Shown: positions 1 to 52,582, counted from the first letter of the stretch. The stretch: DNA of 52,582 bases from Chitinivibrionales bacterium (GCA_028278335.1 JANQEN010000126.1:1-52582), one strand, 5' to 3'. The notes: generated by a model from the sequence alone, not told the origin. Numbers and translations: made by a program.

Positions 1-118
1 AGACTTTCAGGCTTTTCGGCCATATCACCTTGTAGATATGCCCTTCAAAACCTTCAAGTCTTACTAAATCATAATCTTGCACTTCTGCATCTACTCCTAC
101 CGCATAATCTGGGATTAA
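1..118 (-). mobile_element. Partial copy (window-truncated) of a ~172-bp MITE-like element, reverse orientation. It ends with the terminal inverted repeat ...ctactcctaccgcataatctgggattaa.
   Basis: Bases 1-118 are near-identical to the reverse complement of 45780-45918. The terminal motif GCATAATCTGGG(A)TTAA matches the TIR of the full copy. Confidence 0.7.
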
Positions 119-21496: not shown

Positions 21497-21841
21497 AGGC
21501 TTTGCTGATTTTTATTTAGGCGCCTACTCAGTGACTTAATTGAAAGAGTTTTAAAAGCATATGGGAGTTGTCCTCATTTTAGTGTTATGATTCAGATTGT
21601 TTGGGCGTCTTTTCAATTCATACATCTGTCATTTAAAAAATTTATTTGGGCGATCCTTCGCTTAAGCTCAGGCCGGGCCTGCTCCAGGCTCCGCTATCGC
21701 TTCGGTATTTTGGCTTGGCCAAAACACTGCTCTGCACCTTCCGCGTCCCTATCGCAAAAGATTAAAAGATTGATGAAGGTCTAACAGTATTGGTCATTGC
21801 GATCTATTACCTCTTTATAAATGCTATTGAGTTGCTTTTTA

Positions 21842-22096
21842 CCCCTTCAATCGCACCGCCGAATGGTTCAGAAAAACGCGAGGTGCTGTTTCACGGATAC
21901 CTTCCTGGTACCCGCCCCTTGGGCATCACTTCGTGATGTGCTCTCCGACCATCCCTGGTCTCCGAGTGAGTCTGCCCAGCAGAAGAGTTCAGCGAGCGTC
22001 TGAACCTGAGGCGAACAGGGCGATTGCGGGGTGTGTTTCGTTCATGTTTGCCATCCCTGGCAAACACCCTACGGGCTGTGCCTTCGGCACAGTGCT
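21842..22096 (+). repeat. GC-rich structured repeat element, copy A (candidate ncRNA / cis-regulatory RNA). It carries a ~90-nt insertion relative to copy B.
   Basis: 5' 30 nt (ccccttcaatcgcaccgccgaatggttcag) and 3' ~95 nt (gacctgaggcga...gcgattgcggggtgtgtttcgttcatgtttgccatccctggcaaacaccctacgggctgtgccttcggcacagtgct) are near-identical to the reverse complement of 33819-33990. Contains hairpins tgtttgcca/tggcaaaca and ctgtgcc-UUCG-ggcacag. The 5' end can pair with gcgattgcgggg. Confidence 0.6.
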
Positions 22097-22368
22097 CTCT
22101 AGCCATCCTGGCTTACGAGTGCTTACTTTTTTTTGCTGCAGACCGGGCAAAAATTACAATAGAAACAATGCCGCCAGGCATTGAACTACCTTACCCAGCA
22201 GAACGGTAGTGACAATAAAGGTGAGGCGCCTGCCAGTGCGCGAACTGGCGATCTTCAATGTTTTTTGTTTTTCCTGTCATCGCGAGCGCAGCGACGCGAT
22301 CTCGTAATCTATATATACATCGGGATTGCCGTGCCACACGTCTAATGACATGAACCATTTTAAGAATT

Positions 22369-23178
22369 ATGAAGTCAAATCACATATCAATATTATTAAC
22401 TCTTTTAATTGGATGCCTCGTCAGCTCTTCTTTTGGTTGCTCACTCTTTGCTCACGTTTCCAAGGATAGTGTTATTGTTGGACGTAATTTTGACTGGCAT
22501 ACAACCGGTGGCACCATCTGGTTTATACCAAATTCCTCAAAGGGATTTGGGCGCATGACCATAACCCAACTTGGAATAAAGATGCCCTATGAAGGATTAA
22601 ATGAACAGGGTCTGTTTGTTGGTCAAGCAATGGTTAGAGACACCCGCAATAGACCTAACATCTTTCATAAACGAGTTCGTGCACCAGCATTGATTGACAA
22701 AATCCTTCGTAAGTGTAAAACTGTTGAAGAGGCAATCAAACTGGCGTCTCGAAGGCGTATTCTTTTTGGTCGATCATTGGGCTATCCCCACATACACTAT
22801 TTCTTTGTGGATGCCTCAGGTGCTTCAGCAGTGCTAGAAATCTTTGATGGTAAATTGTATATATTTCACCGTACCGGAAACAACCAAATTGTATCAAATA
22901 ATTATTGGGCGGAAAATAGAGAACTCTGTCCACGTTACCAAATCGCTGATAGCCTGTTTGCAAAAAATAACACACCCTCAACACTCTTTTCTATCAAGGT
23001 ACTGGAAAAAATTTCACAATCTATGACAGTATGGTCAAATGTTTATAACCTTAAAAAGCTTAAAGTATATCTTCGCACTGACTCTGATTTCTCCCGTATC
23101 AAGGCATTGAAACTGAATGATGAATTATCTAAAGGGCTTCACTCCTATAACTTTAAAACATGGGTTCTTGAGGATTGA
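22369..23178 (+). CDS. Secreted Ntn-hydrolase of the choloylglycine hydrolase / penicillin V acylase (linear amide C-N hydrolase) family.
   Basis: 269 aa. Signal peptide ending ...SFG followed by the nucleophile Cys (CSLFA). GRNFDWH motif typical of the CBAH family. Confidence 0.6.
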   Translation: MKSNHISILLTLLIGCLVSSSFGCSLFAHVSKDSVIVGRNFDWHTTGGTIWFIPNSSKGFGRMTITQLGIKMPYEGLNEQGLFVGQAMVRDTRNRPNIFHKRVRAPALIDKILRKCKTVEEAIKLASRRRILFGRSLGYPHIHYFFVDASGASAVLEIFDGKLYIFHRTGNNQIVSNNYWAENRELCPRYQIADSLFAKNNTPSTLFSIKVLEKISQSMTVWSNVYNLKKLKVYLRTDSDFSRIKALKLNDELSKGLHSYNFKTWVLED

Positions 23179-23467
23179 CTGGAAGAGAATTGATTACTGA
23201 ATAGTTTACATTCTGCAACCATTTTCTGTAAAGAGTCGCAATCGTGCAACGCCCCCGTTAAATCAACAGAGTGCCAACTAATGTTATAACCTAATAAATA
23301 ACATGCCCTTACGCGCCAAACGGCACTTTTGGCATACCATTTGTTTTAATTTATGGTTAAAACTGTCCAACATAGATAACAAATATTGGATACAGAGCAC
23401 CATACCACAATGGTTTGGTGATGTTGTTTAACTATTAACCTAAAACAAATTTTAAAGGAGTCTCTTT

Positions 23468-24229
23468 ATGACTAAAAGTCCTGAAGAACACTACAACGAG
23501 GAGCTTGCTACTATCATGGCAATCCCCGATGACAAGCACGCCCATTTAAACATGCCACCAGAAGTTGCCATGCAGGAGGGTAAACGTGTTGCTGCCCTTT
23601 CAGTAAAGTACAAGTCCGAGCTTTCTGAGACAGAGATTGATCCAGCACTTCTTGACTCAGTAGAAGCGCGCGCCGAAGCCTATGCCTATAGTGTGGCAGC
23701 CTGTGATATCTATCAATCCGCAGGTCCAGCACTAAAGGAAAAGTACCAGGAAGCCAAAAGAAAGGCCTATGCCTTACGAACCAAACTGCTTAAGAGTCTG
23801 GAATATCTCTTTCGCCAAGACCCAAACACATTGGAGCGTATTGCAGTTATACGATCAGGCAAAGGTGATGGGGACCTGCACAAGGATATGCTCTCCTGCC
23901 ATAAGCTCTGCAAAGAAAAAGAGGAATTTTTGGCTGCCACCAATTTTGATATGGCCCTGGCTCAACAGGCAGTTGCTCTTTGGGAAGAGATGGCACACCT
24001 TGACTCAGAAGCAGACATCAATCCTGAAAGAGTAAACGAGGCTAAGCGGATTTGTGCTAAAGCTTGGACCTATTTACATGAAGCCTTGGACGAGATTTAT
24101 GCTGCTGGGCGGTATCGATTCATGGATGAACCAGAGGTTGAAGAACTGTTCTACCGCGACTATATTCAAGAGTTGCGGAAAAGATCAGCCAAGAATAATA
24201 CAGCCGAAGAAGCATCTGTGACCCCGTAA
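23468..24229 (+). CDS. Hypothetical all-alpha cytoplasmic protein.
   Basis: 253 aa, RBS-like ggag upstream. No recognizable family. Confidence 0.5.
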   Translation: MTKSPEEHYNEELATIMAIPDDKHAHLNMPPEVAMQEGKRVAALSVKYKSELSETEIDPALLDSVEARAEAYAYSVAACDIYQSAGPALKEKYQEAKRKAYALRTKLLKSLEYLFRQDPNTLERIAVIRSGKGDGDLHKDMLSCHKLCKEKEEFLAATNFDMALAQQAVALWEEMAHLDSEADINPERVNEAKRICAKAWTYLHEALDEIYAAGRYRFMDEPEVEELFYRDYIQELRKRSAKNNTAEEASVTP

Positions 24230-24313
24230 AGCGATTTTAATACTCTTGTGATGATCTATGCTGGGTGTCTCCTTGGGGAGGCACCCTTTTTTTATCAATC
24301 TAATATAACAAAC

Positions 24314-24562
24314 TTAATGCCTTTATAAACAATAGCCTAAAGTTTAGAAGACTATGCCTAAATGATATGTAAGGGGGCGTAATGTTTATGAAATAGGGCC
24401 TAATGTTTATAGGACTAGGCGTAATTATTGATCAGGGGGGTCGTAATTTAGATATGAGGGGGGCTTAATTTCGATGACACCGGGCATATATTCGTTATGA
24501 GGGGCCCTAAATTTATTCACATGGGGCTTAATGTTTGTGAAGAGGCGAATATTATTTGGTTT
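24314..24562. repeat. Degenerate tandem array (~12 units of 17-24 bp) with consensus GGGG(C)CNTAAT(G)TTTAT.
   Basis: Units start at ~24373, 24396, 24418, 24435, 24458, 24482, 24501, 24523, 24544 (gggggcgtaatgtttatg, gggcctaatgtttatagg, ggggggtcgtaatttagat, ...). In the convergent intergenic region at the edge of the AT-rich islet. Confidence 0.6.
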
Positions 24563-24571
24563 GTTGTTAAT

Positions 24572-25837
24572 TCACGCTCCTTGACTTATTATTACCTTTT
24601 CTAATCTTTTCTTTTTAACTTGGGGGAACTTAAATGATAGCTCCTTAATTCCCATTTTTTTGGTTTTTCTGCCTTCTCTTATTTTCTCAGATATATTGAG
24701 AGCCTGACTTTCTAACTTATCACAATACTCAAAAACTTCTTTTGTCATATCATTAGAGAGTTCTGGCATCTTTTCAAGCAAACGCTTTTCTCTATCAATA
24801 CTTTTTTCTGGATCAAGTGGTTGAGCAATACTAATAGCTAAATCAACTATTTTTGCGTTTAATTTTACAAATTGTCTCTCTTTTTCCCATTCTTTGTACA
24901 ATTCTTGGTTTTTTAAATAGTCTATTACTGGATACGTTATAGGTATCATCAAACCTAACCAAAGAAGAAAGAATATGGCTGAGGCAACAAGCATTCCATC
25001 AAGGATGATCCCTTTATATGAACCTGTAGGTTTTTTTAATTCCGCAAACTTGGCAGCAATATATTTCCATTTTGAATTATGTAACGGATAAACTATTAGA
25101 GTGTCGTTCTTTTTAAATTTCCTTGGACTGTTATTATTAAAACTCCATCCAACGGTTGCCTTTGAGCTATCAGGCAAATATCCATGAATACGATATTGGA
25201 AAGTAAAGGGCAACCGTTTATCAATTTTAGATATCGCCTGGACAGAAAAAATACCCGGTGAATTCCAGTCAATATTTTTATGCTTGTTAAGGTTTGACAG
25301 ACCCCAAATTGCAAACAATACAGAGAGTCCCAAAATTATATACATACCACTTCTGAAAGTCGATGAAATAAGAATCTTCACATAAAAGCAAACTTTACCA
25401 AATATCGACTTGGAGATTTTTTTCTCATCCTCTGACTCCGTACTGCCTGAAGTAATTAAGGATATGGTTTGTACAAGCACAAAAAAATAGAAGACATAAA
25501 AGTCATTGAACCTACGGTAAATAAAGTGGAAATAAAAACTGATAATAATTGAAATTCCCAACATATACCATTCTATAGCGATTTCGCTCATCTGTTTCTT
25601 TAGTCTCGCCCTTCGCTTTTTCAAGAATATCAGGGTATATATTACAGTAATTAGCCACGTATCTGCAAAAGCTCCAGCAAAAAAGAAGAAATATCTCCGT
25701 CCCCAAAAAAATAAACCCGCAACGAAAAGAGCAAACAATACCACGGCGAACCTATCTTCCTTTGATGCCCCTTTCCATTTGTTAGTAATTGCTAAAATTG
25801 GATTTATATTTCGCATCCTTCTTTCCTTGATGACCAT
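24572..25837 (-). CDS. Hypothetical polytopic membrane protein with a long C-terminal cytoplasmic coiled-coil tail.
   Basis: 421 aa. 4-5 N-terminal TM helices, a central soluble beta-rich segment, an additional TM, Lys/Glu-rich helical C-terminus. AT-rich codon usage distinct from neighbours. Confidence 0.5.
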   Translation of the reverse strand: MVIKERRMRNINPILAITNKWKGASKEDRFAVVLFALFVAGLFFWGRRYFFFFAGAFADTWLITVIYTLIFLKKRRARLKKQMSEIAIEWYMLGISIIISFYFHFIYRRFNDFYVFYFFVLVQTISLITSGSTESEDEKKISKSIFGKVCFYVKILISSTFRSGMYIILGLSVLFAIWGLSNLNKHKNIDWNSPGIFSVQAISKIDKRLPFTFQYRIHGYLPDSSKATVGWSFNNNSPRKFKKNDTLIVYPLHNSKWKYIAAKFAELKKPTGSYKGIILDGMLVASAIFFLLWLGLMIPITYPVIDYLKNQELYKEWEKERQFVKLNAKIVDLAISIAQPLDPEKSIDREKRLLEKMPELSNDMTKEVFEYCDKLESQALNISEKIREGRKTKKMGIKELSFKFPQVKKKRLEKVIISQGA

Positions 25838-25859
25838 GATTGACAGGTCTTTATTATGA

Positions 25860-26414
25860 TTAAAAAGTAGTCATACCCACAAACGTAATAGCATGAAGCA
25901 AGAATATGTAACAGATCACAAATAGCAAAATATTTATTCGCTTTTTCGGCAATTGTGAATTGTCGACTTCCTTTTTCCCATTTTTGATGAATTGGTCCCT
26001 AATTCCCGGAAAAACAAATTCAGAAAAAAATAAACCATAAAGTATTGTTAATAATGCTACGGCAATGTTTGGTCCCAATGACTCTATATCACTCATATTC
26101 CCCAACATGAGAACCAAAACAATTAGTGTCCAAATTATTCCACCAGCTAAAGAATAATTTGAAGCTGAAGTAAAATATTGAATTAAAAAATTCCTCTCAT
26201 CATCTCTCAAATCATCTTTTGGGGCAAATATTTTTGAAAAGGAATAAGAAATATTTTTAAAGCCATATGAATAAATGAGCCCACAGATTACAGCACCAAG
26301 CACAACAACAATTGATGGAGGGTCGATAAAATCTAAAACACGATCAGGCCCTACTGCTAAAAGTATTATTCCAAAAAATAAAAGTAATCCGATTATTCTC
26401 ATTTGATTCTCCAA
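25860..26414 (-). CDS. Small MotA/TolQ/ExbB-family-like proton-channel protein (orphan).
   Basis: 184 aa, 3-4 TM. C-terminal TM segment LGPNIAVALLTILYGLFFSEFVFP matches the MotA/ExbB signature (G..[IM]AVAL.TT.YG....P). No MotB/ExbD/TolR-like partner adjacent. Confidence 0.45.
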   Translation of the reverse strand: MENQMRIIGLLLFFGIILLAVGPDRVLDFIDPPSIVVVLGAVICGLIYSYGFKNISYSFSKIFAPKDDLRDDERNFLIQYFTSASNYSLAGGIIWTLIVLVLMLGNMSDIESLGPNIAVALLTILYGLFFSEFVFPGIRDQFIKNGKKEVDNSQLPKKRINILLFVICYIFLLHAITFVGMTTF

Positions 26415-26654
26415 GTTTTAATAACTATAAATTAAAAAGGAAATGCATCCCAAAAATCCTCAAGTATATCTTTCCATTTTCTGTTGAATATCAATGAAAA
26501 CACTACATAAATAATAAAAGGTATAAGAAGAATAAGAATCATTATCATTTTGATGTTGACCTATAAGCAATCACGACAATAATCACCTATGAAAATTTAC
26601 TGTTAATAATCAGAAAGAGTATTTGAATTAATTCCATTTTCTTTTCTACCAATT

Positions 26655-27557
26655 CTAATGGTAAATCCATGTAAAGTCTGCAATACTTGAGCAGTTATCA
26701 AAGAACATCACGTAACCATCCTGAACATATCGTGACACAAAAAATATGATCTCACTTTGGCCATCACCGTCATAATCTCCTGCATCAACTAAGGAAGCAC
26801 TTGATTCGTCATCATCGCCAAATTCATCTAATTCGTACTTTTTATCCATCAATTTAGTAAGATTGCATATGAAACCGTCATTAGACACATAAAACCAAGC
26901 GCTTGTTCTACGATGGGTGGCCAATTGTATTAAGGCATCATTCTTGTTCGAACAATATGACTTCATCGCCTCAACTTTACCAGTGATACTCCTTCTTCCT
27001 TTAGTATTCCAGTATAGAGGTATGAGAGAATCTACCAAATGTTTTGGTGGGATGAACGGTTTCCATCGTTCAGGGTCTTTACAGTTATCTTTAGAAACAA
27101 CAATCAGAGGGCGTGGATATTGCCCTCCCGGTTCTCCTGCAAACTCAGATGTTGGTTTTCCTACTGTTGGAAGGTTCTTCTGAACTGGCAAATGATGTGC
27201 ATCCCGAGGGAATGTCCACGAGTAGTTTTTCCATCTGAGTGGTTCCATTTTAGATGAAAAATGACCAAGTTTTCTTCCGTCGAATGCAATATACCATTTA
27301 GATGACTTCGGGTACATTTGCTGTTTTACCACACTATCGCACATTGAAATCCAACGATCTCCACTCTTCATGAACAAGACACGTACAATTTTTTTCGTTG
27401 ATAAATTTCCTTCATTTCTGTACTCAGTGTCTGGCCAACGACTAAATTTTGTTTCAAGGGTACCGACGAATATTGTGTCATTTTCTGCAAAAGAAAAACG
27501 AAGTAATATGAACAGAATTGCGAAGGCTAGTGCTACATTTAAGAAGGGATGATTCAT
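26655..27557 (-). CDS. Hypothetical secreted protein with a C-terminal FG-GAP/VCBS-like Asp-rich calcium-binding motif.
   Basis: 300 aa. Signal peptide. Motif DAGDYDGDGQSEIIF near the C-terminus. Confidence 0.45.
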   Translation of the reverse strand: MNHPFLNVALAFAILFILLRFSFAENDTIFVGTLETKFSRWPDTEYRNEGNLSTKKIVRVLFMKSGDRWISMCDSVVKQQMYPKSSKWYIAFDGRKLGHFSSKMEPLRWKNYSWTFPRDAHHLPVQKNLPTVGKPTSEFAGEPGGQYPRPLIVVSKDNCKDPERWKPFIPPKHLVDSLIPLYWNTKGRRSITGKVEAMKSYCSNKNDALIQLATHRRTSAWFYVSNDGFICNLTKLMDKKYELDEFGDDDESSASLVDAGDYDGDGQSEIIFFVSRYVQDGYVMFFDNCSSIADFTWIYH

Positions 27558-27699
27558 TATTTATTCTTTCACCATAGTATTTTCGAGAGTTAAATGTTTT
27601 TTAAAGGGTGTCCATCTATTGCGTAACAATGCACAGTTACGCTTGTGTACTGCAAACTGTTACAAATAAGCATTTTCCTTTTAGCTAAGCTATACATAA

Positions 27700-27942
27700 T
27701 CAATTTTTATGAAAGTGAAAATACCAATAAATAAATGCACTGAGATAACCAATAAGAACTAATGATTCAAATATTGTAAAAAATAGTTTGAATGCATTTT
27801 TATAGGCATCTGGTGACCACTCATCGTTCATTGCTTTGTTTTCAACCGTTTCATCAGCCTGCTTTTTTGCTGCATAGCAAGCTGCCATCGACATTACAAT
27901 AAACTTGACGATTAATCCAATTAGAATGGTGTTTGAATCCAT
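27700..27942 (-). CDS. Small two-TM membrane protein.
   Basis: 80 aa, two hydrophobic helices. Uncertain. Confidence 0.3.
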   Translation of the reverse strand: MDSNTILIGLIVKFIVMSMAACYAAKKQADETVENKAMNDEWSPDAYKNAFKLFFTIFESLVLIGYLSAFIYWYFHFHKN

Positions 27943-28204
27943 CTGTTTATTCTTTTTCTACACTATTACATAAATCATTGTGGTAGTATATTTCACACAA
28001 CAAATCATTACATAGTCAAAGGTCACAAAATTACTTTTTATAGATTATGAATTCCAATTATAGTTTGTATATTAAACCTTTGTAATCTATAATGCAAATT
28101 TAAAAATCGCATTGACTCAATAACAATTCCAAATCAAAGATGACGTCCTGAATATAATGAAAATATATAAAAGGTTTGGTTTTGGAAATTGTGTTGGAAA
28201 ATAA

Positions 28205-28675
28205 TATTGAAGTTAGCCCAGAGGGCTTAGACATACCAGCCTGGGCCAGCGGCCCAGGTGTATAGATCATCATAAATCCCTTCAGCCTGAAGGGCTGAGA
28301 CAATATAGGAAAAGTAAAGTTCGCCCTCGTCGAGGACGTTGGGTTTGTTATTATCTCAATCCCCAGGCTCCTTCGTCGCCTGGGGCTATTCAAGGTTATA
28401 CCCCTTCGGGGATAAAAAGTTTGAAGTGTAAAGTGCCTAAAGTGAGCTAAAGTTTGAAAATCTGAAGAGTGTTTTAAAGTTATGGATTTTATCGCTGCGC
28501 TGCGCTCGCAATGACAATTGCGGTTCAATTCTTTTTTATGAATCTTTTAATATTTTGGGTTAGCCAGGCGGCGGGTGGCCGCAGGCCAGTCTGAGCAACG
28601 CGAAGACCGACCAGAGGGCAGCCCAGAGCCACGGCGACCTGAACGGAGTGAAGGAACCCCCATATATTTTTTTTT
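28205..28675. other. Cluster of at least 8 short GC-rich perfect hairpins in AT-rich DNA (candidate structured ncRNA(s) or REP-like elements), upstream of rtcB.
   Basis: Hairpins cctgggcc-agc-ggcccagg, ccttca-gcc-tgaagg, ccctcg-tc-gaggac, ccccaggc-(9)-gcctgggg, cccc-ttcg-gggg, gcggc-gggtg-gccgc and others. No credible ORF. Confidence 0.5.
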
Positions 28676-28989
28676 AATGACGATTTAAAGATTAAAACAT
28701 TATATGGGATTCGCTGGTCAGCAGAAAATGCAATCGCACAAGCAGCACCCCAGTATTTATCAAAAGACGATAGATTGCCGCGCTACGCTCGCAATAACAA
28801 ATAAAGAAGTTCTCAATAATATGTTTCGATCAAGTCGCCCAATCAACAAAAACATTCCAGATAAAAATCCCTTTATTCCACAGTAACTAAATGATATTTT
28901 AGTAGATACATAGTACTATCTAAAATGAGCGATTTTATTTAGAAAAACTAGCATCATACCTATTTCTATTTTCGAAACAGCAGAATCCC

Positions 28990-30363
28990 ATGAAGTCACG
29001 GGAATTGAAAAATGTGGGAATCCCAAAGGGGCCCGCAATGAAGGCTGCCTTTGCTGCGCTTAAGCTTCTTTCTCAAAGCAATTTGGCGCAACCCTATGAT
29101 GAGCTTTTTGCAGAGGTTGTCCAAAGTCCAAAGAGGTATCTCAACCATCCTATACTGGCAAAACTTGCAGAGCTGCTTGCTGAAGCACCGCTAAAGGAAC
29201 AAAGAGCGGTTGGGCGAGCCACACCGGCTCCCATGCAAATCTGGGGAGAGGATTTTGAGCCAGAGGCCATAAACCAACTGACCCGAGCCTGCCATTTACC
29301 GGTGTCGGTTCGGGGAGCATTGATGCCTGATGCTCATGTGGGATACGGATTGCCCATTGGTGGGGTGCTTGCAACAGAGAATGCGGTTATCCCCTATGCG
29401 GTGGGCGTTGATATTGCCTGTCGCATGAAAATGACGATTTTGGATCTTCCCCTGTCTGCCTTGAGCACTGAGCTTGCCCGGTTGAAGCAGGTGCTCAATA
29501 GAGAGACGAGCTTTGGTGTTGGCGCAGAGTTTTCCCGGCGAAAGCATCACCGGGTTATGGATAGGAAATGGAACAATTCACCGGTCACTAAAAAGCTAAA
29601 GGACAAAGCCTGGGCTCAGTTGGGTACCAGTGGAAGTGGGAACCATTTTGTTGAGTTTGGAGTGCTTACCGTTTTAGAGGATCAATTTTTACTCAAGCCG
29701 GGAACCTATTTTGCGCTGCTGAGCCACAGTGGTAGCCGCGGTGTGGGTAATGAGGTTGCTACCTATTATAGTAAAATAGCCAGGACCACTAATCCCACGC
29801 TTCCCAGAGAATCTGCCCATCTGGCTTGGCTTGATTTAGACTCTCAGATTGGTCAGGAGTACTGGCAGGCCATGACCTTAATGGGTCACTATGCAGCAGC
29901 AAATCATGAGTGTATTCATTCGGCCATACACCATGCTCTTGGTGCTGAAGTTCTATTAGATTTAGAGAACCATCACAACTTTGCCTGGAAAGAGCGCTAT
30001 AACGGAAGTGATGTGATTGTCCATCGTAAAGGAGCAACTCCTGCAGCCACGGGCGTCTATGGGATCATCCCTGGATCAATGGCTACTCCCGGCTATGTAG
30101 TACGTGGGTTGGGCAACGAGGATTCGCTCAATTCCGCCTCCCATGGAGCAGGAAGAAAAATGAGTAGGCAGGCTGCTAAAAGATGTTTTTCATGGCAAGA
30201 GGCTCAGCACTATTTAGAAAAACAGGGTGTGACAGTTATCTCTGCAGGATTAGATGAAGTACCCATGGCATACAAAGATATTGATGCGGTTATGGAAGCT
30301 CAATCGGATCTGGTGGAAACAGTGGCACGCTTTGATCCAAAGATAGTTAAAATGGCAAAATGA
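28990..30363 (+). CDS. rtcB: RNA-splicing ligase RtcB (3'-phosphate / 2',3'-cyclic phosphate RNA ligase).
   Basis: 457 aa. MPDAHVGYG, GVDIACRM, SGSGNHFVEFG, HRKGAT and HGAGR motifs diagnostic of RtcB. Confidence 0.85.
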   Translation: MKSRELKNVGIPKGPAMKAAFAALKLLSQSNLAQPYDELFAEVVQSPKRYLNHPILAKLAELLAEAPLKEQRAVGRATPAPMQIWGEDFEPEAINQLTRACHLPVSVRGALMPDAHVGYGLPIGGVLATENAVIPYAVGVDIACRMKMTILDLPLSALSTELARLKQVLNRETSFGVGAEFSRRKHHRVMDRKWNNSPVTKKLKDKAWAQLGTSGSGNHFVEFGVLTVLEDQFLLKPGTYFALLSHSGSRGVGNEVATYYSKIARTTNPTLPRESAHLAWLDLDSQIGQEYWQAMTLMGHYAAANHECIHSAIHHALGAEVLLDLENHHNFAWKERYNGSDVIVHRKGATPAATGVYGIIPGSMATPGYVVRGLGNEDSLNSASHGAGRKMSRQAAKRCFSWQEAQHYLEKQGVTVISAGLDEVPMAYKDIDAVMEAQSDLVETVARFDPKIVKMAK

Positions 30364-30468
30364 AACAGTGTCCTCTTTGTGGCAGGGATCTGAATTTTTA
30401 GAACTAATGTAGTAGCGATTTAAAACCTTTTTTATTATATTATCCACTTTGATCCTAACGAATCAACC

Positions 30469-31101
30469 GTGGAAGGTGCAATGATTACAATTATTGACTA
30501 CAAAGCAGGCAATCTGACATCGGTAAAACGGGCCTTGGATTATCTTGGTATTGAATCAATTATCACTCCTGATAAGGATGCTGTTGCTGGGGCAGAACGT
30601 ATCATCTTTCCTGGTGTGGGACACGCCAAAACCGCAATCGCGGTTTTACAGGAACGGGGACTGGATATTGCTCTTAAGGAGGCCTTTGCCAAGGGAACTC
30701 CCATAATGGGGATCTGTTTGGGTAGCCAGATTATCCTTTCTCAGTCCCAAGAGGGAGACACCAATTGTTTAGGATTGATTGAAGGAAATTGTCCAAAGTT
30801 TGTTTTAGAGGACCCTTCCCTAAAAATTCCGCACATGGGGTGGAATGTAGTCACGGTAACCCGCGATCACTATATACTAAAAGATGTAAAGTCCGGTGAT
30901 GAATTCTATTTTGTTCACTCCTTCTATCCTTTACCAGCAGAGGAGAGTGCCGTATTTGCACACTCTGATTATGAGGTAACCTTTCCTGCAGCCATTGGAT
31001 ATATGAACCTATTTGCAACCCAGTTTCACCCGGAAAAGAGTGGTCCCATTGGTCTTCAGATGTTGAAAAACTTTTCAGAATGGGACGGTACAGCATGCTA
31101 A
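30469..31101 (+). CDS. hisH: Imidazole glycerol phosphate synthase, glutamine amidotransferase subunit HisH (true start possibly ATG at 30481).
   Basis: 210 aa. Class I GATase with catalytic Cys in GICLGSQ and a His/Glu C-terminal motif. Followed by hisF with overlap. Confidence 0.8.
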
Positions 31102-31874
31102 GAAAACGATTGATCTCCTGCTTAGATGTACGTGACGGAAAATTGGCCAAAAGTATCAAGTTTGTCAACACCAAGGATATCGGAGATCCCGTGTCCACGG
31201 CAAAAAAATACTATGATGAAGGGCTTGACGAATTAGTATTCTACGACATTACTGCCTCCAGTGACAAACGGGACATCATGATCGATGTGGTGAGCAACGT
31301 GGCCTCGCAGGTGTTTATCCCCTTTTCCGTTGGTGGCGGATTACGTACAGTAGAAGATTGTAGCAAAGTTCTTTTAGCCGGTGCAGAAAAGGTCAATGTC
31401 AATACTGCGGCAGTAAATAATCCTGAGCTTATTTCGGAAGCCTCTAAAGCGTTTGGTGCGCAATGCGTAGTGCTTTCCATGGATGTACGTCAGGTAGTAG
31501 GAACAAAGGATATTCCTTCGGGATATGAGATTGTGATAAATGGTGGTAGAACACCAATGGGTCTTGATGCGATTGCCTGGGCAAAACAGGGCGAAGATTT
31601 GGGTGCAGGAGAATTAGTGGTTAATTCGATTGATGCTGATGGTACCAAGGAGGGTTACGAGTTAAACCTTACTCGGACCATTGCAGAGGCGGTAAACATT
31701 CCGGTCATTGCCTCTGGTGGGGGTGGCAAACCAGAGCATCTCTATGATGTACTTACCGAAGGTAAAGCAGATGCAGCACTGATTGCCTCAATTCTTCACT
31801 ATGGTGAGTACTCGATTAAGGAGATTAAGGAGTATCTTATTGGACGGGGTATTCCTATGCGCATGATCTATTAA
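31080..31874 (+). CDS. hisF: Imidazole glycerol phosphate synthase cyclase subunit HisF (true start possibly ATG at 31095).
   Basis: 264 aa. (beta/alpha)8 HisA/HisF family: CLDVRDGK...VKG and two Gly-rich phosphate-binding segments (GGGL, SGGGG). Confidence 0.85.
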
Positions 31875-31883
31875 GGTGCATGC

Positions 31884-32576
31884 TCAAGTAAAGAGTCTGA
31901 ATATAAAGGATGTTATGTCGTCAACTAGGGAGGACTCCATGTTGGTGTATGTAAAGCTGTCTGCCCGTCCCTCTTGCATGGCTTTGCGATTGTAGGCTTC
32001 TTGCTCTAAACGCTTTTCCTGGACGCGGCGCTGTTGCTCCTTCTCTTTTTCAACCATTCTCTTTTTGTCTAAGATCTCACCACCAGCCTTTTTCCACTCC
32101 ACAATTCGTTTGAGCTCTCCACCGTCAACCCAAACACCATGCTTTTTGCACCGGTCAACAATGATTCCACTTCGAGCGCCAAAATTATTGCGATGCATTA
32201 ATTCGCCACACACGGGGCATTTGCGATATACAACGGTTCTTTTAGTATAATCTTGGTTGGCAGTTATCTTATTGAGTTTGCTAAAATCTACACCCGATGG
32301 TGGCGTTACGTTTTTCTCCAGATAAGCTTCAAGTTCATGACAGTCAAAAAACATACCCAGGCAGGTAGTGCATCGCTCAATAAAGAGGGTGCCATCGGAG
32401 TCAAGGTCAATGGTTTGTAACTTTGTTGTGCATTGGGGGCAGAGGCGGTCACTTTCGTGGTCAACCGGGGAACTGATATGAGCATCAGCTAGGTCGATGT
32501 CATTAAAGGTACCGCAATAGTCGCAGACATAATTGCCAATCACAAGCGGGGCCGAGCAGTTCACACAGTTTGGCAT
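31884..32576 (-). CDS. Zinc-ribbon protein with two TFIIB-type zinc-finger domains (zf-TFIIB-like), YdjG-like.
   Basis: 230 aa. N-terminal CxxC...CxxC. Two copies of CPxC...(D/E)xC...G(V/M)(W/F)xDxxEL. Lys/Glu-rich C-terminal helix. Confidence 0.6.
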   Translation of the reverse strand: MPNCVNCSAPLVIGNYVCDYCGTFNDIDLADAHISSPVDHESDRLCPQCTTKLQTIDLDSDGTLFIERCTTCLGMFFDCHELEAYLEKNVTPPSGVDFSKLNKITANQDYTKRTVVYRKCPVCGELMHRNNFGARSGIIVDRCKKHGVWVDGGELKRIVEWKKAGGEILDKKRMVEKEKEQQRRVQEKRLEQEAYNRKAMQEGRADSFTYTNMESSLVDDITSFIFRLFT

Positions 32577-32593
32577 TGGATTTCTCCTAAGGA

Positions 32594-33616
32594 CTATAGT
32601 CGATCCAGGATCTCTTTCTTTTTGGCAGCATACTCTTCCTGGGTAATGAGCTCTTCTTCGTACATCTTCTTTAATTTTGCCAGTGTAGCCATAGGGTCCG
32701 CTGTTTGATTGGAATTCTGTTGCTCCTGCGGAGCCATTGCACCGGTCATAATGTTACCGAAACCAATTCCCGCACCAATACCCATGCCCACACCAGCTCC
32801 GCCACCTTCATTCTTTGCTGCATCACGCATAGCATCAAGTTGTTGCATCTGAGTATAATCGAGCCCAACCGATTCCGCAGCATGGGCATCGGCCTTTACA
32901 TCAGCAATACGGTTGATCCTCTTCATAGTTTCTTCATCAAAACTGGTGCCCTCAATACGAAAGTCGGTAATAGTAAAGCCCACCTTGTCAAACTCAGGCT
33001 CTAACCGCTCTTGAATATCCTGGGCAATCTCCTCTCGCTTTGCATCAATGTCACCATAGGAAAACTTCTCCTCTGCAAAGTAATCGGTTAAGGGTTGGGT
33101 GATTCGATCACCCATTACTTCCCGTAATTGCCCGGCAGAATAAAAGGAAGCGCCGCCAACAACGTTGATAAAGAAGTCCTGGGGACGGGTAATGCGAACA
33201 CTGTAGTTGCCATACGCCTTTAATCCAACAGGAAAAGAGTAAACCGGGTCGATATATTTGATGGTGTTGGTGGTGCCCCATTTTTGGTCCAAGATTTTGG
33301 TCGTTCTAAAAAAGAAGATGCCCACCTGATGTTCGCTTTTAAAGGATTGCATTATTCGGCTGATGGTTGTCCAAAAGGGAATGTTTTCAGTTTCTAAATC
33401 AACAATACACTCTTCAGTAAAGATATCTTCGACCTGACCTTCGTACACAAATATACAGCCCTGCCCAGGCCCGACAATAAGTTTAGAGGCGTTCTTTATC
33501 TCATCACCGTTATCGGTCCAGCGGTAGAAGAGTTGATTTGTACCAGGATCTTCCCACTCGATAACTGAACGAAGTTGTCGTTTAATTCCTTCAAAAAGAG
33601 ACATGGCTACCTCCAA
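32594..33616 (-). CDS. SPFH/Band 7 family protein (Band_7_1, YdjI-like) with a C-terminal SHOCT domain.
   Basis: 340 aa. SPFH-like core. Gly-rich linker. C-terminal LAKLKKMYEEELITQEEYAAKKKEIL matches SHOCT. Likely co-transcribed with the downstream zinc-ribbon gene. Confidence 0.6.
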   Translation of the reverse strand: MEVAMSLFEGIKRQLRSVIEWEDPGTNQLFYRWTDNGDEIKNASKLIVGPGQGCIFVYEGQVEDIFTEECIVDLETENIPFWTTISRIMQSFKSEHQVGIFFFRTTKILDQKWGTTNTIKYIDPVYSFPVGLKAYGNYSVRITRPQDFFINVVGGASFYSAGQLREVMGDRITQPLTDYFAEEKFSYGDIDAKREEIAQDIQERLEPEFDKVGFTITDFRIEGTSFDEETMKRINRIADVKADAHAAESVGLDYTQMQQLDAMRDAAKNEGGGAGVGMGIGAGIGFGNIMTGAMAPQEQQNSNQTADPMATLAKLKKMYEEELITQEEYAAKKKEILDRL

Positions 33617-33818
33617 AAAAATATAGCACTGTTTCTGACAGAATGAATGTACGTTTTGATTATACTATTCGTGTCTATAGTAATACATAGGTTCTTTAAG
33701 AAATTAATGCTAGGAGCATTTAGGTATCTGCTCATATTGTTTTTGCTGATTGTGTAGGATGGACAAGTAAACTTAATCATTTTTGCAGTTTATTAAGATC
33801 GTCGAGATACTGCCCGAC

Positions 33819-33990
33819 AGCACTGTGTCGAAGGCGCAGCCCGTAGGGTGTTTGCCAGGATGGCAAACATGAACGAAACACACCCCGCAATCGCACTGAT
33901 CGCCTCAGGTCCAGGCACTCGTTAAACTCGGCTTCGCCTCGAACAGCCACTCGTACTATTCTGAACCATTCGGCGGTGCGATTGAAGGGG
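33819..33990 (-). repeat. GC-rich structured repeat element, copy B (inverted relative to copy A).
   Basis: Reverse complement aligns with 21842-21871 and 22000-22096 of copy A. Same hairpins (tgtttgcca-tcc-tggcaaaca). Lies ~180 nt upstream of the SPFH gene start on the minus strand. Confidence 0.6.
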
Positions 33991-34049
33991 AATAAAATCA
34001 TCATTATAGATCGATTCGTTAATAAAACTAAAAAGAAGTACACCTATTA

Positions 34050-45628: not shown

Positions 45629-45746
45629 AATTAACTTTCTTAATTGTTTTAAATTTTTACTCCACCATAGATCGTATCAATATCAAAATGATCCAATGCA
45701 AAAATACAATTCCCAGGAGGTCCTCACATATACATTTCGCTTAATT

Positions 45747-45918
45747 TTAACCCAGATTATGCAGTAGGAGTAGATACAGAAGTGCAAGATTATGATTTAG
45801 TAAGACTTGAAGGTTTTGAAGGGCATATCTACAAGGTGATATGGCCGAAAGGCCTGAAAGTCTTAATGGGCATAGGATTGTGTTTCTGCGCTATTTCCTA
45901 TTGCATAATCTGGGTTAA
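45747..45918 (+). mobile_element. Complete MITE-like element (~172 bp) with ~23-bp terminal inverted repeats TTAACCCAGATTATGCA(G/A)TAGGA.
   Basis: Left TIR 45747-45769. Right TIR 45896-45918 (reverse complement). Internal sequence repeated at 1-118 (inverted) and 52475-52582 (direct). Flanked by TTAA. Confidence 0.75.
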
Positions 45919-46233
45919 AGGAAATGTAAAATGTTTTTGCTTTAAATTAAAAATTGAATTAAATATTGACAAAATCGAATGTAAAATATAAGCCCCATTT
46001 GCTACACTTTTTAGGGTTATTCTCGGGTTTTTTATTCTCCCACAGAATACAATATGTTGGTTTACTAAAATTAAACTAGCCAATATGGTGTGTAACAGCC
46101 TAAAAATGGACAAGTTAGAAATTAATAAAAAAAAAGTGATTTTTTTATTGTCATTTTTTGCAATTAATGTATAATAAATTTGATCATAAATTTGAAAATA
46201 TTGTTTATTTTTTTTCTAACATTTTGATACAAA

Positions 46234-52474: not shown

Positions 52475-52582
52475 TTAAACCCTGATTATGCAGTAGGAGT
52501 AGATGCAGAAGTGCAAGATTATGATTTAGTAAGACTTGAAGGTTTTGAAGGGCATATCTATAAAGTGATATGGCCAAAAAAC
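52475..52582 (+). mobile_element. Partial (window-truncated) third copy of the MITE-like element, direct orientation.
   Basis: 52475-52582 aligns with 45747-45854 with ~6 mismatches. Begins with TIR ttaaaccctgattatgcagtaggag. Confidence 0.7.

What the first reader, a model, noticed from the sequence alone, without database searches (positions are those of the whole stretch)
28205..28990. Dense cluster of short perfect GC hairpins immediately upstream of rtcB: candidate structured ncRNA(s).
About 470 bp of AT-rich DNA with at least eight 5-9 bp perfect GC stems. Several have UUCG/GAA-type loops: cctgggcc-agc-ggcccagg, ccccaggc-N9-gcctgggg, cccc-ttcg-gggg, gcggc-gggtg-gccgc. No ORF. It lies between a horizontally acquired-looking islet and rtcB. 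In Salmonella and other bacteria, rtcB neighbours Y-RNA genes (yrlA/yrlB) and rsr, and RtcB acts on structured RNAs. A Y-RNA-like or other RtcB-substrate ncRNA is therefore a reasonable hypothesis, but no Rsr/Ro60 gene is present. REP-like palindromic elements are an alternative.
Basis: partly seen in the sequence, partly recalled or inferred. Interest (0 to 1): 0.65.

Follow-up and report, generated by a model that had tools for sequence, protein, structure and literature searches.

The report
Palindromic repeat elements upstream of rtcB
The hairpin cluster upstream of rtcB is real, but it is a patchwork of selfish palindromic DNA repeats of the kind that elsewhere flank IS200-type transposase genes, not an RNA gene linked to RtcB, so it is fairly ordinary.

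Summary
Two of the three 8-bp GC stems in the 52-kb contig lie here.

They are not a known RNA. Rfam and ARAGORN find nothing, there is no Ro60/TROVE gene, and about 60 homologous rtcB loci share no long upstream spacer or synteny.

Hairpins H1-H6 (about 28211-28415) form one roughly 200-nt composite palindrome with the layout B-A-h1-h2-A-B. A covariance model was built only from A-B hairpin doublets in other organisms. In two of those loci the doublets directly flank IS200-like Y1 transposase genes. Across the whole window the model hits only this block (E 1.4e-7 and 3.4e-7). Full-length counterparts occur in a Verrucomicrobia MAG and a metagenome contig.

The rest of the stretch holds two copies of a TGTC-tagged REP-type hairpin, with a third at 22.3 kb, and a MITE-like element with a diverged copy at 21.6 kb.

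Copy number in this genome and a cognate transposase could not be tested. I rate it a new member of a known kind, with low to moderate interest.

The parts
28211..28415 (.). Composite palindromic element of about 200 nt. It has two inverted three-hairpin arms with the layout B(H1)-A(H2)-h1(H3)-h2(H4)-A(H5)-B(H6), which is REPIN-like.
   Evidence: An nhmmer profile of the full-length elements of L065 and L086 hits the window only at 28215-28411, on both strands (E 6e-4 and 7e-4). L065 alone gives E 0.011-0.015. The alignments are collinear. GC is 0.42-0.49 against 0.25 in the flanks.
28211..28261 (-). Complete A-B hairpin doublet, H2 then H1 read on the minus strand: CCTGGGCC-gct-GGCCCAGG, then the linker GCTGGTATGTCT, then AAGCC-ctctg-GGCTAA.
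   Evidence: Model R1, built without any window sequence, scores 35.4 bits, E 1.4e-7, over model positions 1-52. The linker plus the 5' arm of B match L087 at 17 of 20 bases, and the A stem is kept by three compensatory pairs.
28279..28317 (-). B-type hairpin H3 with its 5' TGTC tag (TGTCTCAGCC-cttca-GGCTGAAGG). It lacks an adjacent A hairpin and serves as central hairpin h1 of the composite.
   Evidence: R1 scores 34.0 bits, E 3.4e-7. It matches units next to the Y1 transposase genes of L087 and L083 at 22-25 of 26 bases. This hairpin supplied the 21-mer used to fish the family, so this hit is not independent.
28322..28338 (.). H4, central hairpin h2 (CGCCCTC-gtc-GAGGaCG).
   Evidence: It aligns with GCGCCCCTTCAGGGC of L086 and CGCCCTTTCAGGGCG of L065. 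The stem scan and terminator scan also report it.
28358..28415 (+). Second, more diverged A-B doublet: H5 (CCCCAGGC-N9-GCCTGGGG), the linker CTATTCAAGGTTATA, then H6 (CCCC-ttcg-GGGG).
   Evidence: R1 matches the A part only, marginally, at 13.8 bits, E 0.054. GGGCTATT...CCCCTTCGGGG matches the L077 doublet GGGCTATTGACCAGCGCCCCTTCGGGGCG and the L065 B hairpin. The H5 stem is shifted by one register relative to the family.
28415..28483 (.). AT-rich linker carrying five AAAGT motifs, with a short 9-nt tandem repeat at 28429-28453.
   Evidence: No function is assigned.
28491..28517 (-). TGTC-tagged REP-type hairpin, copy 1. Minus strand: TGTC ATTGCGAGCGCAGCGCAGCGAT.
   Evidence: The 16-mer pattern has 3 matches in the window against 0.02 expected, and the copies align pairwise. 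The same unit, GGATTGCC-GCGCTRCGCTC-GCAATGAC(G), occurs in 31 of 32 viral contigs found with the 19-mer, including an arm that was not part of the search pattern.
28535..28697 (+). MITE-like element ('MITE-A').
   Evidence: It is 63% identical over 167 nt, E 1e-8, to the inverted copy at 21611-21777. The ends are conserved and the core is diverged.
28774..28800 (-). TGTC/TGTT-tagged REP-type hairpin, copy 2. Plus strand: GATTGCCGCGCTACGCTCGCAATAACA.
   Evidence: By eye it differs from the cross-genome consensus at about one position.
22275..22300 (+). Third copy of the TGTC-tagged hairpin, inverted relative to the two copies above. Its stem ATCGCG/CGCGAT is compensated relative to ATTGC/GCAAT.
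21611..21777 (-). Second copy of MITE-A, on the far side of the low-GC islet.
28990..30363 (+). rtcB (457 aa). It is a neighbour only and is not part of the repeat mosaic.
   Evidence: Pfam RtcB, E 4e-90. The best homologues are 63-66% identical.

Best explanation
The 28205-28990 stretch is a mosaic of non-autonomous palindromic repeat elements, comparable to a BIME (bacterial interspersed mosaic element), sitting in a long divergent spacer. It is not an RNA gene.

**What the pieces are**
- H1-H6 are one copy of a roughly 200-nt composite palindrome. It has two inverted arms, each carrying an 'A' hairpin (CCCAGGGC-type) and a 'B' hairpin (TCAGCC-N5-GGCTGA-type with a C/TGTC tag), plus a central hairpin.
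- In other bacteria the same A-B doublets sit in tandem and inverted arrays directly flanking IS200-like Y1 (HUH) transposase genes. That is the REPtron / REPIN-RAYT arrangement.
- Downstream of the composite lie two copies of a TGTC-tagged REP-type hairpin and one MITE-like element. Each has further copies in the same contig.

**How it most likely works (inferred)**
- The hairpins fold in single-stranded DNA at the replication fork.
- A Y1 transposase supplied in trans recognises, cuts and rejoins them.
- This copy may be an immobile relic.
- Its position next to rtcB is incidental.

**Shown versus inferred**
- Shown: the hairpins, their homology to transposase-flanking doublets, the shared six-hairpin layout, stems kept by compensatory changes, and repeat copies within the contig.
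- Inferred: mobilisation by a Y1 enzyme, by analogy with IS200/IS605 and REP-RAYT.
For: **How the family was found**
1. A phmmer search with the spurious ORF across the block returned P0129 (E 3.4e-4).
2. P0129 is an ORF over four 156-nt tandem hairpin units immediately downstream of a 158-aa Y1_Tnp gene in L083.
3. A metagenome scan with the shared 21-mer gave three further non-coding hairpin clusters: L085, L086 and L087.
4. In L087, three doublets follow a Y1_Tnp gene and one inverted doublet precedes it.
5. Both transposases match Pfam Y1_Tnp (1e-26 and 3e-21) and the NCBIfam IS200 model above its cut-off.

**Tests on the window**
- Model R1 was made from 10 doublets, none from the window. 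Run over the whole window with filters off, its three best hits all fall in the block: 28261-28211 (-) at E 1.4e-7, 28317-28279 (-) at E 3.4e-7, and 28358-28395 (+) at E 0.054.
- The first of these hits does not overlap the 21-mer used for fishing.
- Across 12 doublets, 94% of cells pair, and 4 pairs show changes on both sides: A-T to G-C in L085 and three compensated pairs in window H2.

**Independent examples**
- R1 also finds an inverted pair in L065 (a Verrucomicrobia MAG) and a doublet in L077 (Phycisphaerae). Both loci had been fetched only for their rtcB gene.
- L065 3452-3652 and L086 236-455 have the same B-A-h-h-A-B layout as the window.
- The nhmmer profile of those two elements hits the window only at 28215-28411.
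- An inverted A...A-B arrangement lies between a 194-aa ORF and the next downstream ORF in the IMG/VR viral contig L089. By my reading of the translations these are a prohead protease and a major capsid protein; neither was run against a family library.

**The 3' half of the stretch**
- The 16-mer hairpin pattern has 3 matches against 0.02 expected.
- MITE-A has a second copy at 21611-21777.
- The 27-nt hairpin belongs to a family found in 31 of 32 viral contigs with its unsearched arm intact.
- It has the tag and the AT-start stem that Di Nocera et al. 2013 describe for CGTC/TGTC REPs (PMC3733652).

**Context**
- The contig carries at least two more dispersed repeat families, and both of its ends stop inside one of them.

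**Literature**
- REPINs are two inverted REPs with a spacer, mobilised by RAYTs (PMC3337134 abstract).
- The IS200 TnpA recognises subterminal secondary structures and works on single-stranded DNA (PMC6006769 abstract).
- REP clusters and REPtrons occur in several phyla (PMC3733652).
Against: - The H1-H6 composite occurs only once in the 52.6-kb contig. High copy number, the hallmark of REPs, is therefore not shown for this genome.
- No Y1 transposase gene lies in the window.
- Model R1 finds nothing in 78 kb from four of the nearest available relatives (Chitinivibrionales, PNPase 71-74% identical), and BLAST with the window's other repeat-bearing spacers finds nothing in those loci either.
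- The associated transposases score as IS200. They reach only 27 bits on the NCBIfam RAYT model, whose cut-off is 80.
- The family was found starting from the window's own H3 sequence, so the H3 match is true by construction.
- The right arm (H4-H6) is much more diverged. H5 is marginal in R1, and H4 and H6 rest on alignment by eye and on nhmmer.
- There are no transcription data, so an RNA-level role taken on secondarily cannot be excluded.
Confidence: 0.78

Rival explanations
1. The block encodes a structured non-coding RNA that is functionally tied to RtcB: a Y-RNA-like or tRNA-like RNA, or another RtcB substrate or regulator.
For: - It lies upstream of rtcB.
- It folds better than shuffled sequence, with z-scores of -2.6 and -4.2.
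- H6 is a C(UUCG)G tetraloop on the plus strand.
- One other rtcB locus, L077, also has a hairpin-rich spacer containing a family doublet 326 nt upstream of rtcB.
Against: - Rfam gives no match at gathering scores and only noise at E <= 10.
- ARAGORN finds nothing.
- No Ro60/TROVE domain was found.
- The block is 570-780 nt from rtcB, and two other repeat elements lie between them.
- About 60 rtcB homologue loci have gaps of 0-344 nt and no shared neighbours.
- The same hairpins occur in unrelated contexts: after transposase genes, 1.8 kb downstream of rtcB in L065, and between two ORFs of a viral contig.
- Several stems have loops of only 1-3 nt, which fits DNA palindromes better than RNA hairpins.
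- Strand preference is inconsistent. H4 pairs better on the minus strand, while the UUCG loop of H6 is on the plus strand.
Confidence: 0.04
2. The hairpins are repeat-derived but have been taken over as a cis-acting element. They might act as an insulator or terminator, or as an mRNA-stabilising structure, between the divergent islet operon (80-aa gene and onward, minus strand) and rtcB. They might also form a structured 5' leader of the islet operon.
For: - REPs are reported to act in transcription termination and mRNA stabilisation (PMC3733652 abstract).
- The minus strand folds best, with z = -4.2 and G-U pairs only on that strand.
- Two weak terminator-like sites lie on the minus strand at H3 and H4.
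- The block lies 270-470 nt upstream of the 80-aa gene on the same strand.
Against: - Terminator-like and promoter-like sites occur at the frequency expected from shuffles.
- The best promoter-like site for the minus-strand gene (28086-28057) lies downstream of the hairpins.
- There are no T-runs after H1, H2, H5 or H6.
- Nothing here tests expression.
Confidence: 0.1
3. The block is the decayed remnant of the two ends (LE and RE hairpins) of an autonomous IS200/IS605-family insertion sequence whose tnpA gene was deleted. On this view it is not a dedicated non-autonomous REPIN-type element.
For: - The associated enzymes pass the NCBIfam IS200 model and fail the RAYT model.
- The two arms are inverted, as IS ends would be after an internal deletion.
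Against: - The same gene-less six-hairpin layout of about 200 nt recurs in L065 and L086 with similar spacing. That points to a propagating unit rather than independent deletions.
- In L083 and L087 the doublets form tandem arrays of 3-4 units beside a single gene. This is typical of REPtrons and not of IS200 copies.
Confidence: 0.07
4. The hairpins are a chance or compositional artefact of a GC-richer patch.
For: The patch has higher GC than its flanks, which by itself raises the number of GC stems.
Against: - Dinucleotide-preserving shuffles of the same region almost never reach the observed counts: 0 of 500 for stems of at least 6 bp and for stems of at least 8 bp.
- The block shows significant homology to a family defined in other genomes.
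Confidence: 0.01

Closest known systems
REP / REPIN elements with their RAYT (REPtron) systems, as described by Nunvar 2010, Bertels & Rainey 2011 (PMC3116915, PMC3337134), Ton-Hoang 2012 and Di Nocera 2013 (PMC3733652)
   Same: - Short GC-rich extragenic stem-loops.
- Units arranged as inverted pairs with a spacer, and in clusters.
- Identical units flank a single Y1 (HUH) transposase gene in inverted orientation, as in L087 and L083.
- Stems are kept by complementary changes.
- A short unpaired tag (C/TGTC) sits next to one hairpin.
   Different: - Each arm carries two or three different hairpins (A, B and a central one) rather than a single REP.
- Nearly the same unit sequence appears in very different lineages: a Fibrobacterota-like MAG, Verrucomicrobia, Phycisphaerae, and metagenome and viral contigs with GC from 0.40 to 0.65. 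REPIN-RAYT systems are described as lineage-specific and mostly vertically inherited (bioRxiv 10.1101/2022.05.22.493013 abstract).
- The transposases score as IS200 rather than as the curated RAYT family.
- Only one copy was seen in this contig.
CGTC-tagged REP superfamily (Di Nocera et al. 2013, PMC3733652), which includes Neisseria dRS3 and the Rickettsia RPE-4 and RPE-6 repeats
   Same: This comparison applies to the 27-nt hairpins at 22275-22300, 28491-28517 and 28774-28800.
- They carry a terminal TGTC tag, which the paper lists as a common variant of CGTC.
- The stem begins with A-T pairs (ATTGC/GCAAT).
- There are several copies per contig.
- The cross-genome consensus ends in the CCA tail.
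   Different: - The window copies lack the CCA tail and have AAA, CTA or CTC instead.
- The outer stem is only 5-6 bp around a 10-12-nt GC-rich interior, whereas the four published families have 8-9 bp stems with 4-5-nt loops.
- I could not see the published consensus figures, so assignment to one of the four families is not made.
BIMEs (bacterial interspersed mosaic elements) of enterobacteria and the mosaic intergenic regions of Neisseria
   Same: Several different small palindromic repeat types sit side by side, in both orientations, in one long intergenic region.
   Different: The sequence families differ. No IHF, gyrase or Pol I binding motifs were examined. Here the mosaic lies between divergently transcribed genes, whereas REPs are mostly found downstream of genes (PMC3733652 abstract).
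Bacterial Y RNAs (YrlA/YrlB) encoded next to rsr and rtcB in Salmonella and Deinococcus
   Same: The only shared features are proximity to rtcB and a high content of stem-loops.
   Different: There is no Rfam match, no rsr gene, no long closing stem with a Ro-binding bulge, no tRNA-like module, and no conservation at other rtcB loci.

Membership tests
REP / REPIN (RAYT-type palindromic repeats) | Short, GC-rich, extragenic stem-loop units | tested here: met
   H1-H6 lie in a 1047-nt spacer. They exceed shuffled expectation.
REP / REPIN (RAYT-type palindromic repeats) | Units paired in inverted orientation around a spacer (REPIN architecture) | tested here: met
   There is a doublet on the minus strand at 28211-28261 and a doublet on the plus strand at 28358-28415. 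The nhmmer profile of the L065 and L086 elements hits the block on both strands. The right arm is diverged.
REP / REPIN (RAYT-type palindromic repeats) | The same units flank a Y1 (HUH) transposase gene | tested here: inconclusive
   This is met in other genomes. In L087, one inverted doublet lies upstream and three direct doublets downstream of a Y1_Tnp gene. In L083, an A hairpin lies upstream, with four direct units and one inverted unit downstream. The window has no Y1_Tnp gene, and the rest of this genome was not available.
REP / REPIN (RAYT-type palindromic repeats) | The transposase belongs to the RAYT clade rather than to ordinary IS200 | tested here: not met
   The NCBIfam REP_Tyr_transpos model scores 27.4 bits against a cut-off of 80. 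The IS200 model scores 69.5 and 57.1 bits against a cut-off of 55. The curated RAYT model may be built mainly from proteobacterial members; that is my inference.
REP / REPIN (RAYT-type palindromic repeats) | Many dispersed copies within the same genome | tested here: inconclusive
   There is one composite in 52.6 kb and no other R1 hit below E 0.05. Only this contig of the genome was available. Logan contigs of the same sample break at 28260 and 28634, which fits a repeat or a polymorphism but does not prove either.
REP / REPIN (RAYT-type palindromic repeats) | Stems maintained by complementary substitutions between copies | tested here: met
   94% of cells pair, 4 of 14 pairs show changes on both sides, and 0 of 500 shuffles reach the observed covariation score. 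The sequences are related and few, so this is supportive only.
CGTC-tagged REPs (Di Nocera 2013) | Unpaired CGTC tag (or its TGTC/CCTC variant) at one end | tested here: met
   For the 27-nt hairpins the tags are TGTC (28517 side), TGTT (28800 side) and TGTC (22275 side) in the window, and CGTC in most viral-contig copies.
CGTC-tagged REPs (Di Nocera 2013) | Stem of 8-9 bp starting with two A-T pairs, a loop of 4-5 nt, and a CCA tail | tested here: inconclusive
   The A-T start is met (ATTGC/GCAAT). The stem is only 5-6 bp with a 10-12-nt interior. The CCA tail is present in the cross-genome consensus (tGGATTGCC) but absent from the three window copies.
Bacterial Y RNA / YrlA | Match to the Rfam covariance models | tested here: not met
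   Nothing reaches gathering score across the whole window. At E <= 10 only noise appears in 27900-29100.
Bacterial Y RNA / YrlA | Adjacent rsr (Ro60, TROVE domain) gene | tested here: not met
   No TROVE hit appears among the neighbours or the ten largest ORFs. Smaller ORFs of the window were not all scanned.
Bacterial Y RNA / YrlA | Conserved position next to rtcB in related genomes | tested here: not met
   About 60 rtcB homologue loci show upstream gaps of 0-344 nt and no shared neighbours.
MITE (for 28535-28697) | Terminal inverted repeats, no coding capacity, and more than one copy | tested here: met
   The ends AATCTTTTAAT / ATTTAAAGATT are inverted. A second copy lies at 21611-21777, 63% identical with conserved ends. 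No target-site duplication was seen and only two copies are known.
Intrinsic terminators | GC stem followed by a T-run | tested here: not met
   Only two weak minus-strand candidates were found (at H3 and H4), at the frequency expected from shuffles.

The most novel reading that the evidence does not exclude
The six-hairpin composite (B-A-h-h-A-B) may be an undescribed, horizontally travelling REPIN-like element family. It would be served by IS200-like Y1 transposases and would keep almost the same recognition hairpins across phyla (Fibrobacterota-like, Verrucomicrobia, Planctomycetota) and in a viral contig. That would run against the current picture of REPIN-RAYT systems as lineage-bound and vertically inherited. 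A weaker variant is that these clusters are transcribed and their hairpin RNAs are processed, which would make their occasional position beside rtcB meaningful.
Probability: 0.12. Interest if true: 0.5.

Novelty: new member of a known kind. Interest (0 to 1): 0.28.

Why it matters
**Value for the scan**
- It removes a false ncRNA candidate. The result also gives a reusable test: model R1 and the A-B doublet consensus TTACCCAGGGCGTTGCCCTGGGCTGTnACGTCTCAGCCYTTCAGGCTGAAGG.
- That test recognises this class of hairpin cluster, which also produces spurious 'proteins' in public databases, such as P0129.

**Biological points**
- It documents REP/REPIN-type elements in a Chitinivibrionales-like (Fibrobacterota) genome.
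- It shows that one hairpin-doublet family linked to Y1 transposases is shared by distant phyla and a viral contig. That bears on whether such elements are purely vertical passengers.

**What it does not do**
- It says nothing new about RtcB.

Tried and rejected
**Searches for a known RNA**
- Rfam at gathering scores on the whole window and at E <= 10 on 27900-29100 gave nothing usable.
- ARAGORN gave nothing.
- Promoter and terminator scans gave site counts no higher than shuffles.

**Comparison with rtcB homologues**
- I fetched 80 loci. The nearest RtcB is only 63-66% identical, no neighbours are shared, and no long upstream spacer is present. Covariation analysis of an 'orthologous' spacer was therefore impossible.

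**Searches for more of this genome**
- Exact look-ups found only two short Logan contigs of SRR20820740.
- A 30-mer of repeat family C is absent from the JGI metagenomes.

**Other sequence searches**
- BLASTN of 28190-28720 against plasmids and phages gave no match.
- A word-index protein search with the 142-aa ORF gave nothing and cost one search.
- A literature search for the hairpin sequence returned only primer coincidences.
- Tandem Repeats Finder found no tandem structure in H1-H6.

**Islet and relatives**
- PADLOC, Pfam and NCBIfam on the islet proteins found no defence system, integrase or transposase.
- R1 on 78 kb from four Chitinivibrionales relatives, and BLAST with the window's other repeat-bearing spacers against those loci, gave nothing.

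**Ideas considered and dropped**
- CRISPR remnant: there are no direct repeats.
- Integron attC array: no core sites were noticed by eye; not searched.
- Retron or ToxI-type RNA: no reverse transcriptase or toxin gene turned up in the neighbouring ORFs that were scanned.
- Pseudogene remnant: there are no protein homologues.
- The 18-nt direct repeat flanking the block (28196-28213 and 28410-28427, 78% identical) as a target-site duplication: it is too weak, and Y1 transposition does not make duplications.


Full report
**1.

The spacer between a divergent 80-aa gene (27700-27942, minus strand) and rtcB (28990-30363, plus strand; Pfam RtcB, E 4e-90) is 1047 nt long. Within it I confirm these stem-loops:
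- H1, 28215-27
- H2, 28240-58 (8 bp)
- H3, 28278-94
- H4, 28322-38
- H5, 28361-85 (8 bp)
- H6, 28402-13
- further stems at 28506-27, 28568-82 and 28576-88

Dinucleotide shuffles of 28205-28425 give 0.15 stems of at least 6 bp, against 4 observed, and 0.01 stems of at least 8 bp, against 2 observed. None of 500 shuffles reaches either count. Only three 8-bp GC stems exist in the whole contig, and two of them are here. Predicted folding is better than shuffles, with z = -2.6 on the plus strand and -4.2 on the minus strand.

The block is a GC-richer patch in AT-rich spacer. A 142-aa TTG-start ORF crosses it but has no real homologues.

**2. It is not a known RNA and is not tied to rtcB**

- Rfam finds nothing at gathering thresholds in the window, and only noise at E <= 10 around the hairpins.
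- ARAGORN finds no tRNA or tmRNA.
- No Ro60/TROVE protein was detected.
- The RtcB protein has no relative closer than 66% identity.
- In about 60 homologous loci the space upstream of rtcB is 0-344 nt, and none of the window's neighbouring genes recurs.

There is therefore no conserved upstream element in this rtcB family.

**3. The 3' half is made of repeats that recur in the same contig**

A self-comparison of all intergenic regions shows the following.
- 28535-28697 is a diverged, inverted copy (63% over 167 nt, E 1e-8) of 21611-21777. The AT-rich inverted ends are conserved and the GC-rich core has diverged, so I call it MITE-like.
- A 27-nt hairpin occurs three times, at 22275-22300, 28491-28517 and 28774-28800. 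The 16-mer pattern has 3 matches against 0.02 expected.
- Scanning viral contigs with its 19-mer gave 32 loci. Of these, 31 also carry the left arm GGATTGCC, which was not part of the search pattern. This is a widespread unit: GGATTGCC-GCGCTRCGCTC-GCAATGAC(G).
- Read on the other strand, that unit has a CGTC tag (TGTC in this window), a stem starting with A-T pairs, and a CCA tail in the cross-genome consensus. These are the features Di Nocera et al. give for the CGTC REP superfamily (PMC3733652).
- The contig holds at least two more repeat families, and both contig ends stop inside one of them.

**4. The 5' half (H1-H6) has no second copy in the contig but has clear relatives elsewhere**

How the family was found:
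- An exhaustive phmmer search with the spurious ORF hit P0129 (E 3.4e-4).
- P0129 is itself a spurious ORF. It lies over four 156-nt tandem hairpin units directly after a 158-aa Y1_Tnp gene in L083.
- The window and L083 share CTCAGCCYTTCAGGCTGAAGG.
- Scanning metagenomes with this 21-mer gave two chance hits in coding DNA and three hairpin clusters: L085, L086 and L087.

The conserved unit is a doublet:
- an A hairpin, CCCRGGGC-N3-5-GCCCYGGG;
- a roughly 11-nt linker;
- a B hairpin, TCAGCC-YTTCA-GGCTGA, preceded by a C/TGTC tag.

In L087, three doublets follow a Y1_Tnp gene and one inverted doublet precedes it. In L083, an A hairpin precedes the gene, and four direct units plus one inverted unit follow it. 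Both enzymes match Pfam Y1_Tnp and the NCBIfam IS200 model. They reach only 27 bits on the curated RAYT model.

**5. Tests of membership**

- I built covariance model R1 from ten doublets, none from the window, and ran it unfiltered over the whole window.
- The three best hits all fall inside the block:
  - 28261-28211 (-), a complete doublet H2-H1, 35.4 bits, E 1.4e-7. It does not overlap the 21-mer used for fishing.
  - 28317-28279 (-), H3, B hairpin only, E 3.4e-7.
  - 28358-28395 (+), H5, A hairpin only, E 0.054.
- The A stem of H2 differs from the consensus at three pairs, and all three are compensated. L085 shows an A-T to G-C swap.
- Over 12 doublets, 94% of cells pair and 4 of 14 pairs change on both sides.
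- R1 also found the family in two loci fetched only because they encode RtcB: an inverted pair in L065 (Verrucomicrobia MAG) and a doublet in L077 (Phycisphaerae).
- L065 3452-3652 and L086 236-455 have the same six-hairpin order as the window, B-A-h1-h2-A-B, at the same overall length of about 200 nt. In L065 the element sits between 11-nt terminal inverted repeats.
- An nhmmer profile of those two elements hits the window only at 28215-28411, on both strands as expected for a palindromic element (E 6e-4). L065 alone gives E about 0.01.
- An inverted A...A-B arrangement also sits between a 194-aa ORF and the next downstream ORF in the IMG/VR viral contig L089. By my reading of the translations these are a prohead protease and a major capsid protein; neither was checked against a family library.

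**6. Interpretation**

H1-H6 are one composite palindromic repeat element of the REP/REPIN type. Together with two TGTC-tagged REP hairpins and a MITE-like element, it forms a BIME-like mosaic in a long divergent spacer.

The mechanism is inferred from established work. IS200/IS605 TnpA and RAYT enzymes recognise subterminal or REP hairpins in single-stranded DNA, and REPINs are inverted REP pairs mobilised in trans (abstracts of PMC6006769 and PMC3337134; PMC3733652). Nothing links the element to RtcB function.

The mosaic lies at the right edge of a low-GC islet (22369-27942). Inverted copies of the TGTC hairpin and MITE-A also bracket that islet. I note this but cannot explain it.

**7. What remains open**

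- High copy number in this genome and a cognate transposase could not be tested. Only this contig and two short Logan contigs were reachable.
- The window has no Y1 gene.
- By PNPase identity the organism is Chitinivibrionales-like, within Fibrobacterota.
- R1 on 78 kb from four such relatives, and BLAST with the window's other repeat-bearing spacers against those loci, found nothing. The element may be a recent arrival or may simply be sparse.
- The Logan contigs stop at 28260, exactly the outer edge of the H2-H1 doublet, and at 28634, inside MITE-A. This fits a repeat-induced break or a presence/absence polymorphism but proves neither.
- An RNA-level role acquired secondarily cannot be excluded without transcript data.

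**8. Verdict**

- The ncRNA/RtcB interpretation is not supported.
- The finding is a new member of a known kind, with low to moderate interest.
- The one less ordinary aspect is that nearly the same Y1-transposase-linked hairpin doublet, and the same six-hairpin composite, appear in distant phyla and in a viral contig.

Noticed in passing
window 21836-22099 and 33816-33996: A second dispersed repeat ('family B'): the two copies are 85-90% identical and inverted. It is GC-rich, full of hairpins, and has no Rfam match. The 22-kb copy carries an extra insert of about 95 nt (21891-21984) containing CCATCCCTGG-type hairpins.
   Followed up: partly
window 1-118, 45746-45919, 52475-52580: A third repeat ('family C'), with copies 94-96% identical. 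The internal copy is itself a 174-nt palindrome, and both ends of the contig stop inside this repeat, so it probably broke the assembly. A 30-mer from it is absent from the JGI metagenomes.
   Followed up: partly
window 22369-27942, with 21611-22300 and 28491-28697: A low-GC islet (0.25-0.44 GC) encodes a C45/Ntn-hydrolase-like protein, a small 184-aa MotA/ExbB-like protein and four proteins with no family match. There is no PADLOC hit, integrase or transposase. The islet is bracketed by inverted copies of the TGTC hairpin plus MITE-A. It may be a repeat-mediated insertion or inversion unit, or an uncharacterised membrane system.
   Followed up: partly
window 22232, 28260, 28634 (ends of L082 and L001): Logan contigs of SRR20820740 cover 22232-28260 and 28634-33884 but not 28261-33. 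One break coincides exactly with the outer edge of the H2-H1 doublet, and another lies inside MITE-A. The cause could be repeat copies elsewhere or a presence/absence polymorphism of the 373-nt segment. This is unexplained.
   Followed up: no
window 24357-24541: Three copies of an AGGGGSCNTAATGTTT-like unit, spaced 15-130 nt apart, lie downstream of the gene at 23468-24229.
   Followed up: no
L077 1750-2308: A Phycisphaerae MAG also has a hairpin-rich spacer of about 550 nt directly upstream of its rtcB. It contains one family A-B doublet, a GCCCTGAAAGGGC hairpin and three CCCCCCTTTCAAAGGGGGG hairpins. As one case among about 60 loci it is probably coincidence, but it is the only hint of any rtcB association.
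   Followed up: partly
window 28990-29275 (RtcB residues 1-95): This RtcB has an N-terminal extension of about 95 aa before the Pfam RtcB domain. The 120 best homologues, mostly from Planctomycetota, Verrucomicrobiota and Acidobacteriota, cover the full query length, so the extension is a conserved feature of this subfamily.
   Followed up: no
L083 5001-5747 (P0129): A 248-aa 'protein' in public collections is a spurious ORF read across a tandem REP array. Peptides such as LSQPFRLK, PGRCPGL and AQGNALG are translations of the B and A hairpins. They can serve as flags for such mis-annotations.
   Followed up: yes
L065 3452-3652: In the Verrucomicrobia MAG the six-hairpin composite is bounded by perfect 11-nt terminal inverted repeats (AACTCCGAAGT / ACTTCGGAGTT). 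The window copy lacks them.
   Followed up: partly
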